From: Fistulifera solaris
Lineage: Eukaryota
Assembly (NCBI GenBank): GCA_030295235.1
Contig: AP026127.1
Coordinates: 1,178,001-1,242,000 of the forward strand
Direction: 5' to 3'
DNA: 64,000 nt
Shown: in pieces, positions 5,464 to 11,166 of the stretch
Numbering within the stretch: position 1 is the stretch's first letter
Layout of the letters: each line of letters opens with the position of its first letter
Program-made: the position numbers and the translations under genes
Notes under the pieces: generated by a model
The model's input: the letters and a program-made list of their open reading frames with translations, nothing else
Database searches by the model: none
What the model was told of the DNA's origin: nothing

Positions 5464-6544
5464 ATGAAACAAACGAGTCGGTTTACCTGCTCACGCCCGT
5501 GCGTGGCGTTCCTCGCTCTCATTGCGTTCGTCATGTTGTATTTCTCGCGTCAACAAACATTGGATGATTTAGACACAACGTCACAAGAAAAGCATAACCA
5601 CGTCGATGTCAATCCTACCTTTGGTGATGCACCGAGTGATAAACGAAATCCCATTCGTCAGATTAGTATTTTAGGTGAACGAAACAGCGGTACACGATGG
5701 ACCTTTGAGTACGTATCATTTGCTGCTGTTATGCCGCAGCTTGTTTCATTTCGGCTTCTAATTGCTTCATTACAGTCACATGCTGGAATGCTTCGGTCAC
5801 GCCTTGACGGTGAAAAAGGGACTGGTTCGCTATAAGCATTGGTTTCAATACGAAGACTCGTCGCTGTATCCGCACGACACACTCGTCTTGGCGCAGTTCC
5901 GAAACCCCTATGATTGGTTGCAAGCCATGCAGCGTGTGCCGCATCACAGTCCGGCTCATTTGAGTACAGCTGTCGATCACAAATGGGAGATTTTCTTGTC
6001 CAAACCGTGGACGATGGAACGGATCGGGAGCGATTTGTGGCCCAATCGAACGAGTGACGAAGACAGTCCGGCCAAGAACTGTCAACAGAAATTCAAGTAT
6101 CGAGACATTATTAGTTGCGATATCGAACCTTTGCCGCATGAAGCGTACAAACACACGATTCGTTACAGTGAACATCAACCATTTTACGAAATGCGAAATG
6201 ATGGTTCGGGGGAGCCGTTCGCCAATATCATGGAAATGAGAACGGATAAGATTCGGAATTTTCTGTCGGTCGTGGACTATGAAGGTGTTGCGGATGTGTG
6301 GGTGTTGCAGTATGAGTATCTGGTTCACAAAGGAACACAAAATTTAATTGATAAAGTGGCCGAATGGACGGGCATCGAACCAAAGTGTCAAGCCAAAGGA
6401 TCGCAGGTCCGCAAACCTAAAAAGACGAGAATTGTACCAACCGAAATGGCACGATTTATTCGTGAAAATCTAGATTGGGATGTGGAAAGGTCGATCGGAT
6501 ACAACATTGATTTGAAACGGGAAGAAGTCGGCTGGGATTGGTAA
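5464..6544 (+). CDS. Sulfotransferase-like type II membrane protein (2 exons; intron 5709-5775)
   Basis: N-terminal TM segment, ILGERNSGT PAPS-binding-like loop, YKHWFQ, and FRNPYDWL motif. The GT..AG intron joins RWTF-D-HMLECF in frame. Confidence 0.7.
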
Positions 6545-6630: not shown

Positions 6631-9528
6631 TTAAACATTTTGCAAGGTTTCCATGAGTACACTCGCATCCTTATCAGCTAGGCAACTTCCGACAATAGCT
6701 CCCGTGGCTCCAGCTTCCTTTATTTGCTTGACGTAGTCCGTGGCGTCATCACCTATAAGTCCTACTCGGCCTTGAACCAAAAATTGTATGTCTCCGTGTC
6801 GCTCCTTCAGTTCTTCAAAAGTGTCACTTTTTAATAAGGAAAGAGCTTGAGCACCTGTCAAGTCGTACATGTAGTCTTCGAGAAGTCGGTTCGAAAATAT
6901 GAGGCCGTGAATGCTGCCTTTTTCGAGAGCCATTACGGCCCGCATTTGTACTTCCGAAGTCACTTTGACGAATACTTGAAACTGCAAACTAGCTGCAATT
7001 TTCGATAAATACAAAAGATCTTTCGCCGCAAGTGCTCCAGCTATCAGCGATACGGCATCTGCCCCCGCGAGTCGAAGTTTGTACAACTGATATGGGTACA
7101 GGATCAAATCGATTGCTAGCACCGGCGGAACAACAACCCCATCTTCTGACATCATGTCAAGTGCTGCTTTTGCGGTCTCTTCTCTCACAGTTTGTATATC
7201 GCTAAGGGATCCGCCAAAGAAGATGGGGTCGCAGTTGACCGCCATGGCTGGGGCTCCAGCCTGAACGAATGTTCGGGAGAGCTTGGCTAGATCGTATCGA
7301 CGTCGCAGCGATCCACCAACTGGATCAGATTTTTTGAATTCTGGGATTATGATGAATTGGCCGTTTTGAGCCGCAGCTCTAAGACTGGCAACAAAGTCAC
7401 GGGGCTTGGGCATAGTTGGATCCGTTGCCGAAAGTCGGCACTGAGAAACTAAATTCGCCAGAGGAACTCGTTCACGGAATCGATCCACTTCTGTTTCTTT
7501 CTCCCACATGAATTCTTCCAGCGCACTCGAAGCAACGGCCGTCTTTTCAGCAACACTCCATTCGACAGTAGACACAGTAAGGGCCCTGCCCGAATGAATT
7601 TCTCTTCGTTTCAAAATGAGTTCGCCATCCTCACCCCGAGGTGCTTTCGAGGTCAGAGTCTGAGGGCCGATCTTAGTGTCAGCGTCGTCTCCGTCACTTT
7701 CATCATCCGAGATTTCCTTTCTTTCTGAGCTTTCGTTTTTAGCTTGTTTCGGATTGTAGATTGCCCTACCGGAGTGACTGCCAACGAGAAAATATCCAGT
7801 AGCACTACCTTGTATGGTATTTCCAGACAACAGTACTCCATTGGAAAAGAAGCCACTGATGCAACTGACCGATGGCAACATTCGGGCAGCAGTGCTGCTT
7901 TCGTAATACTGCTTGCCTTGAAAAAACTTGCTACCACGATCGAGTGTAGGAATGATGAGGCATCCGACTGCCTCAAACTTGACTTTGGGTTTGTCTTCTT
8001 CGGCAGCAAACTGCTCACCTAATAACCTCTTCTTGTAGCCGATCCACAAAGCCTCTACTTCCTTTTTCGCAAACTCACTTTCACGCACAAAGAATCGCAT
8101 TCGGCTGCCAGGTGTAACATTAACTTTACCCAACGGCAGTGTGACGCTGCCGTCCTTCATCCCGGCCGTAGCTACCTGATGAACTGTGAACCGATGTCCT
8201 TGTCCCTCGGCGAGTCTCAAAAGTTCGGAAACGGTCCGTGCCGTCATGGGACCCTGCTGCTGTTCCAGTCCGATCAATAAAGTACGTCTCATGAAGGCTT
8301 GATCATCATCCGAAAGCGTCCTCATCAAAAATTGGCTTCCGCCAAGACTGGCTTGGGGATTCTGGCCTTGGCATACGCTTGTGCCTGTCGCGCTTTGACA
8401 TCCATCTCTTTTCATCCTCTTCATCGTCTTCCTCCTCCTCTTCTTGCTCTTCTTCTTCTTTCAATGCTTCTGTAGCTGCCTCATCGAGTACAATAGCATT
8501 GATGGTAGAGTCTTCACCTTTGAGAATTTGATAAATACCTCCTACCGCCTTGGCACCTTGTGCCGTCATGGTTTGTATCTGCACATCCCCTTGCAACATG
8601 ACTCCAGTACAACCGTTCGTGTGAAAGGTGGGACTGGAGGAATGTGCTGACCATTGATAGAGTTTGGCACGACTGAGAGACGACACGGTCGACGCAATGC
8701 CCCCACAATCGTGCATTGGGGAAAGTAGGTTTCCAATCCCAACAACAATGCATCCACTTGGGTCGAGAACGCCGGACTGGGCACGAGAAGAAACGATGTT
8801 GGCAATTGATCCAGAGTATCTTCTCCGGCAGCACTGCGCGGCAACAAACCGACTTCTTTTTTCCATTCCTTGGCGTCCAATTGGTCCATATCGTCCGGCA
8901 AATCCTCCAAATGAAACGTTCGAACCGTCGTATCCGGAAAGATTGCCAGGGTAACAATGACCGCCGGAATCCCTTCGTATTCGACCGTATCACACGCTTG
9001 CATGGTATTCAAAACCGGTGCACCCCCGATGCATCCCGCCACGGAACTCCCAATGAGATTTTGAATTTGAACACCAAAGGAAGACGCCGAAGCCAAAATG
9101 GTCGGTACCGTCAAAGTCGAGGGTTGTTGCGTTCCACCATCGTACAGTGATGACACGGATACCATGGCCAAGTCGACTGTTATAGGTTGTTCTTCCGTGG
9201 CAGTGGGTAGAGACCGCAATGCCATGGTGACGGCTTCTTGTAAAGCTTCGACGAGATTGGAGTTACTCGAATGACCTGTACTCATGGCCATGGGTTGATT
9301 GAGATCCATTTGTTCCGTTGAAAATGTTTGGGCAGAGAGATATCGTTTGGATTGTTGCGAAACATGACAAATGTTTGCATGTTGGTGGTATCGATGAAGA
9401 GACGCAAAAGTGAAGGCATGAGTTTGTTGCACAAACGACGTGCTCATGAGCCAGAATGAGGCAAGCGCGAGCAGCATTTGCAACTGTATACTACCATCCC
9501 TTCTTCTTGTACGTTGTGAGATCATCAT
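6631..9528 (-). CDS. Plastid-targeted fusion of FIST_N/FIST_C domains and an indole-3-glycerol-phosphate synthase (TrpC)-like TIM barrel; about 3 homopolymer frameshifts
   Basis: Signal peptide ending THA|FTF. FIST motifs LIGSSVAGCIG, FPQCTIVGGIAS, AQGAKAVG, RMRFFVRE and ISGFFSNG. TrpC-like motifs LEEFMWEKETEV, PRDF, IPEFKKSDP, FFGGSLSD, YQLYKLRLAGADAV and NRLL. Frames join at homopolymers near 8700, 8410 and 8328. Confidence 0.8.
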
Positions 9529-9857
9529 TTTGTTGTCGAGAAGGGTTTCCCTGCAATAACAATCTCAACTTGTTATACTGTCTTTTGTTGTCACCGCAAC
9601 AACAATGAGAAAAAAGAGGCAACACAAAAAAATGCGACGACGAGGCACGAGGCAGCCGCGAGCACGAATTTTGGTCAGTACGTCCGTCCGCTTTTCACTG
9701 CGACATGGATCAGTCACCCACTATTAATCTTAGTGTAACCTGGTCCCTGGTACGGTACCGTACTTGCCGCATTATTGCGTCGCTTGTCGTCTGCACGCAA
9801 CACCATGGCGTGCAATGATGAGAAACACGAAGTAATCATTAACTGCATGCAACAAGG

Positions 9858-9876: not shown

Positions 9877-9989
9877 GTTGAGACTACCATTACTGACTAA
9901 ACAGTCGAATTCGTTGAACAAAGACATTTTCAGCGGAGAAACGCGATAAGTAATTCACAGCAATTCATTTCGACGCAACTACAAAAAAA

Positions 9990-11025
9990 ATGGACGAAAC
10001 CGCCGACACCCCGTCATCACCCGAGATGAATGCCACGGCGAGTGCCGCCGCGGCCACACCCCTTCCTCCTCAATCATCAACTGCTACGTTAGATCTCGAA
10101 AAATCATACGCCGATCTCGAAGCGTGGTTGGCCAAATTGACACAAGGAACACCCCTTACGGAAGCTGAAGTCAAACTGCTAACGGAACTCGCCCGCGAGC
10201 GTTTGTTGCAGGAATCCAACGTGCAGCCGGTACCGGCGCCCGTCACCATTTGTGGAGATATACACGGTCAATGGCATGATCTCATGGAGCTCTTTCGGAT
10301 TGGAGGGAGTGCGCCCGATACGAATTATTTGTTCATGGGAGATTATGTCGATCGGGGTTACTATTCCGTCGAAACCGTTTCCTTACTCGTTTGTTTGAAA
10401 GTTCGTTACCCCGATCGCGTCTTTATACTTCGTGGGAATCATGAATCACGACAAATTACGCAAGTCTACGGATTCTACGACGAGTGTGTTCGAAAGTATG
10501 GTTCTGCGAATGTCTGGAAATTGTTTACCGACTTGTTTGATTACTTCCCCTTGACGGCCGTCGTCGATAACGCCATCTTTTGTTTACACGGTGGTCTATC
10601 GCCAAGCATCGATACACTGGATCATGTCCGACAACTCGATCGCGTCCAAGAAGTCCCCCACGAAGGTCCCATGTGCGATTTGTTGTGGAGTGATCCGGAC
10701 GATCGGACCGGGTGGGGCATTTCGCCACGGGGCGCCGGATTTACCTTTGGCGCCGACATTTCGGCCGCCTTCAATGCCCGGAATGGATTGACGACGGTGG
10801 CGCGGGCGCATCAACTGGTCATGGAGGGATACAATTGGAGTCATGAAGGTGCCGTCGTGACCATCTTTTCGGCACCCAATTATTGCTATCGTTGTGGGAA
10901 TCAAGCGGCGATTTTAGAAGTCGATGAAAATAGAACCAATCAGCAGTTTTTACAGTTTGATCCGGCTCCGCGACGAGGTGAACCGAGTACGCTCAATCGA
11001 AAAAACACCCGATTACTTTTTGTAG
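9990..11025 (+). CDS. PPP2C: Ser/Thr protein phosphatase 2A catalytic subunit
   Basis: GDIHG, GDYVDRG, LRGNHE and [11 protein letters not shown] motifs. Removing one A from the run at 11000-11005 restores the canonical C-terminus RKTPDYFL-stop (TAG 11023-11025). Confidence 0.95.
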
Positions 11026-11166
11026 TTTCGTTATAACAGCAATAGTAATAATATAAAAATGGTTAATGTTGAAAGTATTTGCTCTATCTTTTGCTTGTAC
11101 CGATCCTGTGTAAGACTTCTCTTTTGCTGTTTTTATTGAAAAGTCAATGTGAAGTTTGGGTTATGA

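What the first reader, a model, noticed from the sequence alone, without database searches (positions are those of the whole stretch)
6631..9528. Plastid FIST sensor fused to a catalytically degenerate TrpC (IGPS) barrel: candidate metabolite/NO-sensing regulator
Seen: one reconstructed reading frame with a plastid-targeting peptide, complete FIST_N/FIST_C domains, an acidic linker and a cyanobacterial/plastid-type TrpC barrel. The beta-1 Glu/Lys pair is kept (IPEFKK), but the catalytic Lys of L[RC]KDF reads LAIDL (7111-7113), the LVEV Glu reads FVKV (6964-6966), and the ESG phosphate-site motif reads VQGR. Known: these residues (K110, E159, E210/S211 in Sulfolobus numbering) are central to IGPS catalysis and binding; FIST domains are small-ligand sensors, and bacterial NosP FIST proteins bind haem/NO. 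Inference: a pseudoenzyme-sensor linking tryptophan/indole intermediates or NO to plastid regulation, likely to be mis-annotated as TrpC.
Basis: partly seen in the sequence, partly recalled or inferred. Interest (0 to 1): 0.8.

Follow-up and report, generated by a model that had tools for sequence, protein, structure and literature searches.

The report
Plastid FIST-fused TrpC-like paralog
This diatom gene encodes a plastid-targeted protein that joins a FIST sensor-type module to a tryptophan-enzyme-like barrel lacking two key catalytic residues; the fusion is real but already known and widespread in algae, and databases label it as the enzyme.

Summary
Window 9528..6631 (minus strand) is one intronless gene of Fistulifera solaris. 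It encodes a 965-aa protein: signal/transit peptide, FIST_N, FIST_C, acidic linker, IGPS (TrpC)-like barrel.

The window needs three 1-nt homopolymer corrections. Independent contigs carry the missing bases, so these are assembly errors, not a pseudogene.

The catalytic Lys is I806 and the Glu of LVEVH is K855, at the stated coordinates. The beta-1 Glu/Lys and the Asn/Arg pair are kept. Lys and Glu are absent in 0 of 34 diatom orthologues and 0 of 22 wider family members. These include Nannochloropsis, Mallomonas, Chrysoparadoxa, Chromera and Vitrella. A plant IGPS control has both.

The family is under strong constraint, so it has changed function rather than decayed.

Most of this is in print. 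A recalled 2007 paper reports the diatom fusion. Diatoms have a separate canonical InGPS-PRAI. IGPS-like barrels of Vitrella and Plasmodium (AMR1) failed trpC complementation in 2019.

Two points were not found in the searched literature: chromerid IGPS-like proteins share the FIST architecture, and the FIST half matches a single-copy cyanobacterial protein.

The proposed Trp/NO ligands are untested. This is a new member of a known kind, of moderate interest.

The parts
6631..9528 (-). Whole intronless CDS (965/966 codons after three 1-nt corrections), FIST-IGPS-like protein of Fistulifera solaris
   Evidence: identical to deposited proteins P0001-P0003 once three homopolymer bases are restored
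9301..9528 (-). Bipartite plastid-targeting presequence (residues 1-75): hydrophobic signal peptide, THA|FTF site, low-complexity transit part
   Evidence: sequence; motif count in orthologues; pLDDT below 50 in the model; homeologue identity only 0.48. No predictor was run; the ASAFAP-type motif is recalled knowledge
8492..9300 (-). FIST_N domain (residues 76-345)
   Evidence: Pfam PF08495 43.1 bits on P0003; model pLDDT mostly 78-94; fold match to FBXO22
8700..8704 (.). Homopolymer (C5 on + strand), one base short: assembly frameshift 1
   Evidence: table 4: C inserted after 8699 in X1 (15.4 of 15.4) and X2 (16.6 of 16.6)
8388..8491 (-). Acidic insert between FIST_N and FIST_C (residues 346-380, Glu/Asp run)
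   Evidence: pLDDT below 50 at 359-375
8409..8412 (.). Homopolymer (T4 on + strand), one base short: assembly frameshift 2
   Evidence: Deposited protein reads DEKEMDVK. X1 record 8296-8678 is 2 letters longer and X2 record 8346-8573 is 1 letter longer than the window (table 8). Not listed in table 4, because 8412-8461 was skipped as a repeat
8327..8331 (.). Homopolymer (A5 on + strand), one base short: assembly frameshift 3
   Evidence: table 4: A inserted after 8326 in X1 (13.4 of 13.4) and X2 (17.3 of 17.3)
7759..8387 (-). FIST_C domain (residues 381-590)
   Evidence: Colinear with relatives that hit PF10442; fold match to FBXO22 over 530 columns; 37 of 210 columns invariant in 34 diatoms. 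Pfam itself gives no hit at E 0.01 in F. solaris
7645..7758 (-). Acidic, poorly conserved linker (residues 591-628)
   Evidence: 0 of 38 invariant columns; pLDDT below 50 at 611-627
7525..7644 (-). Strongly conserved 40-residue segment before the barrel (residues 629-668)
   Evidence: 15 of 40 columns invariant; 100% identical between the homeologues. Modelled with low confidence. Function unknown
6634..7524 (-). IGPS (TrpC)-like (beta-alpha)8 barrel (residues 669-965)
   Evidence: Pfam PF00218 88.4 bits; family profile against PDB IGPS E 4.5e-55; fold TM 0.82-0.85 to 3tsm and 6y88
7333..7341 (-). Beta-1 Glu730-Phe-Lys732, kept (equivalents of IGPS E51/K53)
   Evidence: Glu in 30 of 34 and Lys in 34 of 34 diatom orthologues
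7111..7113 (-). I806 in place of the catalytic Lys of L-R-K-D-F
   Evidence: S31 I1 M1 L1, 0 Lys of 34; 0 of 22
6964..6966 (-). K855 in place of the Glu of L-V-E-V-H
   Evidence: T19 S10 K2 M2 V1, 0 Glu of 34; 0 of 22
6886..6891 (-). N880-R881, kept (equivalents of IGPS N180/R182)
   Evidence: S-N-R invariant in 34 of 34 diatoms; variable outside diatoms
6772..6774 (-). Q919 in place of the Glu of E-S-G (E210)
   Evidence: Glu in 26 and Gln in 3 of 29 ungapped diatom rows. The Fistulifera-like sequences P0005 and P0006 also read Q

Best explanation
The gene encodes a nuclear-encoded, plastid-imported protein of a conserved family of red-lineage complex plastids (diatoms, other ochrophytes, chromerids).

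In this family a FIST_N/FIST_C module of cyanobacterial ancestry is permanently fused to an IGPS-derived TIM barrel. The barrel is not the tryptophan-pathway enzyme. It lacks the general-acid Lys and the LVEVH Glu. Published work reports a separate canonical InGPS-PRAI fusion in diatoms and other ochrophytes.

In diatoms the barrel keeps the beta-1 Glu/Lys, the Asn/Arg pair and the Gly-rich phosphate loops. It most likely still binds, and may convert, a phosphorylated sugar-like plastid metabolite. The FIST module would act as a partner for ligand or protein recognition.

By homology to the Vitrella IGPS-like proteins, which a 2019 study groups with Plasmodium AMR1, the cellular role is most likely plastid maintenance or biogenesis, or metabolic homeostasis. 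It is not Trp synthesis.

Shown: architecture, residue pattern, family range, constraint, and that the frameshifts are assembly errors. Inferred: plastid import, ligand binding, and the cellular role.
For: - Architecture: Pfam IGPS and FIST_N are above their cut-offs on intact P0003. The AlphaFold model (mean pLDDT 71.5) matches IGPS structures (TM to target 0.82-0.85) and the FIST protein FBXO22 (E 6e-11).
- Not TrpC: Lys is present in 0 of 34 and Glu in 0 of 34 diatom orthologues. I chose these as full-length-looking rows from the 120 listed. The counts are 0 of 22 for both in a wider set chosen. The Brassica IGPS control P0215 has both.
- Canonical paralogue: InGPS-PRAI is reported in the diatom clade, and Ectocarpus has both InGPS and InGPS-PRAI (PMC3942023 passages). 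Nannochloropsis has an IGPS-PAI fusion (PMC3499364 legend). Phaeodactylum has two IGPS ORFs (PMC3901274).
- Constraint: the barrel is 97% identical between the two F. solaris homeologues, against 48% for the presequence. 52 of 297 barrel columns are invariant in 34 diatoms, including D-L-x-L-Y-P-Y-Q-L-Y-K and S-N-R.
- Range: full-length colinear members are named from Vitrella (CEM12188.1, E 2.8e-101), Chromera, Nannochloropsis, Chrysoparadoxa and Mallomonas. Pinguiococcus and Nitzschia sp. Most carry FIST_N, and several also FIST_C, with IGPS.
- Link to function: in PMC6380595 (passages) Vitrella has one canonical IGPS that complements E. coli trpC9800. It also has two IGPS-like genes that, like PfAMR1, do not complement. 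AMR1 knock-down causes apicoplast loss.
- Size: PfAMR1 is 790 aa with a signal peptide and an IGPS domain without catalytic residues (PMC3637116). This size is like the algal proteins.
- FIST origin: a profile of the eukaryotic FIST halves hits one ORF of about 420 aa, end to end, in 51 of 151 sampled genomes of the phylum of Acaryochloris. Almost all of these score E 1e-46 to 4e-76 (one genome only 1.7e-6), and none is fused to IGPS.
Against: - No apicomplexan AMR1 sequence could be obtained, so orthology to AMR1 and the presence of FIST in AMR1 are untested. My one search for it covered only proteins of 1631-4655 aa, the wrong class for a 790-aa protein, and found nothing.
- The Vitrella identifiers of the two IGPS-like genes are not given in the passages I read. 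That CEM12188.1 is one of them is therefore an inference.
- The canonical InGPS-PRAI was not verified in F. solaris itself. No genome is held.
- The authors of the negative complementation note that protein expression was not detected.
- The retained beta-1 Glu/Lys are themselves catalytic in IGPS (recalled), so residual or altered catalysis is possible.
- Outside diatoms the Asn/Arg pair and the beta-1 Lys vary. A single shared ligand for the whole family is therefore not assured.
- In the Fistulifera group the three pocket positions differ from the diatom consensus: S/T/E becomes I, M or L / K / Q.
- Plastid import rests on sequence motifs only.
Confidence: 0.65

Rival explanations
1. One reading: a pseudoenzyme sensor. 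The dead barrel binds a tryptophan-pathway intermediate (CdRP, IGP, indole) and/or the FIST module binds haem/NO, and the protein couples this to plastid regulation.
For: In diatoms the residues that hold the substrate in IGPS are kept, while the two catalytic ones are gone: beta-1 Lys in 34 of 34, S-N-R in 34 of 34, Glu at the E210 position in 26 of 29, and Gly-rich loops. FIST domains are annotated as small-ligand sensors (source names). That NosP-type FIST proteins bind haem/NO is recalled knowledge.
Against: No output domain (kinase, DNA-binding, cyclase) was found. Chromerid members lose the Arg of N-x-R and the beta-1 Lys. The published IGPS-like relative AMR1 is essential in a Trp auxotroph. 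The closest solved FIST structure is a protein-recognition module, FBXO22. No haem-ligand residue was tested.
Confidence: 0.15
2. It is a working enzyme with a new reaction. The IGPS-derived barrel acts on a different phosphorylated substrate, and FIST acts as an allosteric or substrate-delivery module.
For: Strong, position-specific conservation of replacement residues in diatoms (Ser in 31 of 34, Thr/Ser in 29 of 34) and of the beta-1 Glu/Lys. Tang et al. propose a new biochemical function for AMR1. AMR1 depletion raises DOXP and MEP (PMC8022201).
Against: The replacement residues are not conserved across the family: S, D, I, M, N or A at one site, and T, S, K, V, C or A at the other. They drift even within the Fistulifera group, which is unusual for catalytic residues. 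No activity is known.
Confidence: 0.15
3. It is the genuine tryptophan-pathway IGPS, as annotated, using alternative catalytic residues.
For: Pfam IGPS is well above its cut-off. Databases name it IGPS. A recalled 2007 analysis placed it in the diatom Trp pathway.
Against: The Lys and Glu are absent in all 56 rows examined. A canonical InGPS-PRAI is reported in diatoms. Vitrella IGPS-like genes did not complement trpC.
Confidence: 0.04
4. It is a decaying pseudogene, because the window shows three frameshifts.
For: The window's frame is broken three times within about 400 bases.
Against: Independent contigs of two runs carry the missing bases. Three deposited gene models are intact. The neighbouring phosphatase gene shows the same kind of homopolymer error. 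Both homeologues are conserved.
Confidence: 0.01

Closest known systems
Diatom 'InGPS fused to COG4398' (Jiroutova et al. 2007, J Mol Evol; paper not held, recalled from its abstract; cited in PMC6380595 and PMC3942023)
   Same: The same gene family in Phaeodactylum. P0016 is the P. tricornutum orthologue: 57% identity to the 567-aa query and the same FIST + IGPS order.
   Different: As recalled, that work treated it as the pathway's InGPS. Here every member lacks the catalytic Lys and Glu, and the fusion extends well beyond Phaeodactylum.
IGPS-like proteins / AMR1 (PF3D7_1363700) of Apicomplexa and chromerids (PMC6380595, PMC3637116, PMC8022201)
   Same: An IGPS-homologous barrel without the catalytic residues, targeted to a secondary red plastid, and of similar size (PfAMR1 is 790 aa). 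A Vitrella member (CEM12188.1) is colinear with the diatom protein over nearly its whole length.
   Different: Direct homology of the F. solaris protein to PfAMR1 was not tested. None of the AMR1 papers I searched contains the word FIST (0 occurrences in PMC6380595).
Canonical IGPS / TrpC (EC 4.1.1.48), e.g. PDB 6y88, 3tsm, 1igs
   Same: Full-length barrel homology (profile E 4.5e-55; TM 0.82-0.85). The beta-1 Glu/Lys, Asn/Arg and phosphate loops are kept in diatoms.
   Different: The general-acid Lys is Ile and the LVEVH Glu is Lys. The E-S-G motif reads Q-G-R in F. solaris. The protein has a 590-residue N-terminal FIST module and a plastid presequence.
Cyanobacterial stand-alone FIST protein (COG4398 type), e.g. 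Acaryochloris marina WP_012163957.1
   Same: End-to-end match to the FIST half (E 5.6e-63). One copy is found in 51 of 151 sampled genomes of that phylum.
   Different: About 420 aa and never fused to IGPS in those genomes. It is unlinked to trpC in A. marina. No IGPS gene lies among its neighbours in the 13 loci inspected.
FBXO22 FIST domain (PDB 8ua3/8ua6) and bacterial NosP
   Same: The FIST_N/FIST_C fold.
   Different: FBXO22 uses FIST to recognise a protein substrate inside an SCF ligase. NosP (recalled) binds haem/NO and pairs with kinases. Here there is no F-box or kinase partner in the polypeptide.

Membership tests
Canonical IGPS (TrpC, EC 4.1.1.48) | PF00218 (beta-alpha)8 barrel | tested here: met
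   88.4 bits against a cut-off of 27; PDB profile E 4.5e-55; fold TM 0.82-0.85
Canonical IGPS (TrpC, EC 4.1.1.48) | General-acid Lys in L-R-K-D-F (K110, Sulfolobus numbering, recalled) | tested here: not met
   I806. Lys in 0 of 34 diatoms and 0 of 22 wider members; the Brassica control has Lys
Canonical IGPS (TrpC, EC 4.1.1.48) | Glu in L-V-E-V-H (E159) | tested here: not met
   K855. Glu in 0 of 34 and 0 of 22; the control has Glu
Canonical IGPS (TrpC, EC 4.1.1.48) | Beta-1 Glu/Lys (E51/K53) and Asn/Arg (N180/R182) | tested here: met
   E730, K732, N880 and R881. Lys and S-N-R are present in 34 of 34 diatoms, Glu in 30 of 34
Canonical IGPS (TrpC, EC 4.1.1.48) | E-S-G motif (E210/S211) | tested here: not met
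   Q919-G-R in F. solaris. Other diatoms read E-G-R (Glu in 26 of 29); the Ser is Gly in all 29
Canonical IGPS (TrpC, EC 4.1.1.48) | IGPS activity / trpC complementation | not testable with these tools
   The literature is negative for the Vitrella IGPS-like genes and PfAMR1, with an expression caveat (PMC6380595)
FIST domain proteins | FIST_N (PF08495) | tested here: met
   43.1 bits against a cut-off of 23.2
FIST domain proteins | FIST_C (PF10442) | tested here: inconclusive
   No hit at E 0.01 in F. solaris. Above the cut-off in colinear Vitrella, P0154, P0150 and P0162. The fold matches FBXO22 over 530 columns
IGPS-like / AMR1 class (Tang et al. 2019) | IGPS-homologous barrel lacking the catalytic residues, in an organism with a red secondary plastid | tested here: met
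   organism named
IGPS-like / AMR1 class (Tang et al. 2019) | Sequence orthology to PfAMR1 | not tested
   No AMR1 sequence was obtainable.
IGPS-like / AMR1 class (Tang et al. 2019) | Needed for plastid biogenesis | not testable with these tools
   Needs a knockout in a diatom
NosP-type haem/NO sensor | Haem binding by the FIST module, partner kinase | not tested
   No haem-ligand position is known to me with certainty. There is no kinase domain in the protein

The most novel reading that the evidence does not exclude
The FIST-IGPS-like family is the algal counterpart of apicomplexan AMR1. It would be an ancestral two-module plastid factor, with FIST inherited from a conserved single-copy cyanobacterial protein. 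Its barrel would no longer close the indole ring but would still hold a 1-deoxy-pentulose-5-phosphate-type ligand.

CdRP and DOXP share that skeleton. AMR1 loss raises DOXP and MEP. The family could therefore sense or process an early MEP-pathway intermediate and couple isoprenoid supply to plastid maintenance.

Diatoms such as Phaeodactylum would then be a tractable system for solving AMR1's unknown function.
Probability: 0.15. Interest if true: 0.75.

Novelty: new member of a known kind. Interest (0 to 1): 0.38.

Why it matters
Practically, databases label this protein in many algae as the tryptophan enzyme IGPS. Metabolic reconstructions that rely on that label are probably assigning the step to the wrong gene.

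Biologically, an IGPS-like barrel (AMR1) is essential for the malaria parasite's plastid and its function is unknown. If the algal FIST-fused proteins are its counterparts, they add a second, recognisable module (FIST) and genetically tractable free-living hosts for working out what the family does.

The FIST half also points to a conserved, uncharacterised single-copy cyanobacterial protein as the ancestor.

Tried and rejected
- No whole genome is held for the window. A second, canonical IGPS in F. solaris could not be searched for.
- Earlier findings of this scan: three look-ups returned nothing.
- Sequencing runs: no RNA holder is listed. The runs laid were contigs only, so they say nothing about a transcript.
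- Search for AMR1 among longer proteins with the Vitrella barrel found nothing. I had misread a variant label as implying a very long protein.
- ESM Atlas returned only IGPS and diatom FIST-IGPS clusters. No apicomplexan lead.
I used the single Acaryochloris protein instead.
- Gene neighbourhood of the cyanobacterial FIST gene, 13 loci: the neighbours vary. They include NifU-like, DUF2518 and PDH-E2, and in several loci OprB porin and CP12. No trp gene is present, and trpC is about 0.77 Mb away in A. marina. No functional hint resulted.
- The Jiroutova 2007 paper is not held. Its content is recalled from the abstract.
- Literature searches linking FIST to the apicoplast, AMR1, diatom plastids or Phaeodactylum found nothing relevant. 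The library lacks most subscription journals, so this is weak evidence of absence from print.
- No phylogeny of the barrel was made. Only a plant and a cyanobacterial canonical IGPS were at hand.
- The pseudogene reading was rejected on the strength.
Full report
**What is in the window**

On the minus strand, 9528 (first ATG) to 6631 (end of TAA) holds one gene without introns. The window's frame is broken three times between 8700 and 8330.

The deposited Fistulifera solaris proteins P0001, P0002 and P0003 are annotated 'indole-3-glycerol phosphate synthase'. They are 100% identical to the 567 residues I queried. They read straight through these places.

The three differences are one-base shortfalls in homopolymers: + strand C5 at 8700-8704, T4 at 8409-8412 and A5 at 8327-8331. 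Contigs of two public runs insert the missing base after 8699 and after 8326 at full depth. Two contig records that span the third site are longer than the window by exactly the expected number of letters.

The same kind of error shows up twice more. One is in the 5' leader, at 9582. The other is at an A6 run at 11000-11005, where the C-terminal TPDYFL of the neighbouring PP2A-type phosphatase lies out of frame.

The frameshifts are therefore assembly errors, and the gene is intact. A second set of contigs about 7% diverged, together with P0004 (95% identical to the query, 92% over full length), fits a second homeologous copy.

**Anatomy of the 965-aa product P0003**

- Residues 1-75 form a hydrophobic signal peptide ending THA|FTF, followed by a low-complexity stretch. 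A comparable [ASGC]F dipeptide lies in the first 50 residues of 30 of 31 orthologues that begin with Met. This regex is crude. That the motif means plastid import is recalled knowledge, and no predictor was run.
- Residues 76-345 are FIST_N (Pfam 43.1 bits).
- Residues 346-380 are an acidic insert.
- Residues 381-590 are FIST_C. Pfam does not detect it here. It does detect it above the cut-off in colinear relatives. The AlphaFold model (mean pLDDT 71.5) aligns over 530 columns to the FIST protein FBXO22 (8ua3_C, E 6e-11).
- Residues 591-628 are an acidic, unconserved linker.
- Residues 629-668 are a very conserved segment of unknown role (15 of 40 columns invariant).
- Residues 669-965 are a complete IGPS-type barrel: Pfam 88.4 bits, family profile against PDB IGPS E 4.5e-55, and TM 0.82-0.85 to 3tsm and 6y88.

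**The catalytic residues**

The PDB alignments place the residues as follows:

- IIPEFKK lies on the I-A-E-I-K-K motif, so the Glu and Lys are kept.
- LAIDL lies on L-R-K-D-F, so the Lys is Ile806 (7111-7113).
- FVKV lies on I-E-V-H, so the Glu is Lys855 (6964-6966).
- F-S-N-R lies on N-N-R, so these are kept.
- VQGR stands where E-S-G is expected.

In 34 diatom orthologues (chosen as full-length-looking from the 120 rows; alignment A1) the pattern is:

| Position | Residues observed |
|---|---|
| Catalytic Lys | S31, I1, M1, L1 |
| LVEVH Glu | T19, S10, K2, M2, V1 |
| Beta-1 Lys | K in 34 of 34 |
| Beta-1 Glu | E30, D3, Q1 |
| S-N-R | 34 of 34 |
| E210 | E26, Q3 (of 29 ungapped) |

In a wider set of 22 family members drawn, neither the Lys nor the Glu occurs once. 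A Brassica IGPS in the same alignment has both.

The Fistulifera-like sequences (P0003-P0006) differ from the diatom consensus at all three pocket sites: I, M or L / K / Q instead of S / T / E.

**Constraint**

The barrel is 97% identical between the two F. solaris homeologues and FIST_C is also 97%. The presequence is 48% and the linker 76%. Fifty-two of the 297 barrel columns are invariant across 34 diatoms. This is a protein in use, not a relic.

**Range of the family**

A profile search of 1.84 billion representatives gave 172 hits at E 1e-30 or better. Named full-length members are:

- Vitrella brassicaformis CEM12188.1 (one stretch covering profile positions 66-974, E 2.8e-101)
- Chromera velia Cvel_19631
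- Nannochloropsis/Microchloropsis
- Chrysoparadoxa
- Mallomonas
- Pinguiococcus
- Nitzschia sp. Nitz4, which I recall to be a non-photosynthetic diatom

Most of those scanned carry FIST_N with IGPS, and several also FIST_C.

**Origin of the FIST half**

A profile of five non-diatom FIST halves (A3) finds stand-alone FIST proteins. The best named ones are from the cyanobacterium Acaryochloris (E 5.6e-63).

Across 151 sampled genomes of that phylum, 51 have a hit to an ORF of about 420 aa. Almost all of these are end-to-end matches at E 1e-46 to 4e-76. None is fused to IGPS.

In A. marina the gene is unlinked to the single canonical trpC. Neighbours vary among the 13 loci inspected.

**What is already published**

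I recall that Jiroutova et al. 2007 reported that the Phaeodactylum InGPS is fused to the cyanobacteria-derived COG4398. The paper is not held.

From passages and legends that I read:

- Imanian and Keeling 2014 show that the diatom clade has an InGPS-PRAI fusion, and that Ectocarpus has both InGPS and InGPS-PRAI.
- Vieler et al. 2012 list an IGPS-PAI fusion in Nannochloropsis.
- Bromke 2013 counts two IGPS ORFs in Phaeodactylum.
- Tang et al. 2019 define 'IGPS-like' proteins. These are PfAMR1 and two of three Vitrella homologues. They lack active-site residues, fail to complement E. coli trpC9800 (with an expression caveat), and in Plasmodium are needed for apicoplast biogenesis. [quoted passage not shown]
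- PfAMR1 is 790 aa with a signal peptide.
- AMR1 depletion disturbs isoprenoid synthesis, with DOXP and MEP raised.

Searches for FIST together with apicoplast, AMR1, diatom plastid or Phaeodactylum found nothing relevant.

**Reading**

The gene is a plastid-targeted, functionally changed IGPS paralogue fused to a cyanobacterium-derived FIST module. It belongs to a family shared by ochrophytes and chromerids, and it is not the Trp-pathway enzyme.

The barrel probably still binds a phosphorylated ligand. Whether it catalyses anything is open. The tie to AMR1 rests on the Vitrella bridge and on published grouping, not on a direct comparison.

**Gaps**

- Supplements of the cited papers were not opened. 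The alignment figure of Tang et al. is an image.
- No barrel phylogeny was built.
- No F. solaris transcript evidence was obtained.
- The canonical paralogue was not verified in this genome.

Noticed in passing
window 9954-11036 (+), esp. 11000-11025: This is a PP2A-type Ser/Thr phosphatase gene (Metallophos, 147.9 bits), head-to-head with the FIST-IGPS-like gene. Its expected C-terminal TPDYFL-stop lies in another frame just after an A6 run at 11000-11005. This looks like a further homopolymer error of this assembly.
   Followed up: partly
window 9582: Contigs of both runs insert a T after 9582, in a T-run of the 5' leader. This is the fourth homopolymer shortfall within 3.2 kb. ORF calls anywhere in this window should be treated with that in mind.
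   Followed up: partly
window 7249-7409 and 7933-8242: Alongside the identical contigs, a second set lies on the gene, differing at about 7% of positions (12 of 161, 21 of 310). This fits a second homeologous copy, whose protein is P0004.
   Followed up: partly
L011-L022 and L001 (cyanobacterial genomes): A single-copy FIST_N+FIST_C ORF of about 420 aa is present in 51 of 151 sampled genomes of the phylum. Most genomes without it that were listed are small. In several loci it sits beside a CP12 gene and an OprB porin gene. Its function is unknown.
   Followed up: partly
window 5762-6544 (+): This 260-aa open frame converges on the 3' end of the gene. It has no Pfam match at E 0.001.
   Followed up: no
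P0003-P0006 (Fistulifera-like sequences), residues 806, 855, 919: These sequences share Lys855 and Gln919, where other diatoms have Thr/Ser and Glu. They vary (I, M, M, L) where others have Ser. This is a lineage-specific reshaping of the barrel pocket, possibly a coupled charge change.
   Followed up: partly
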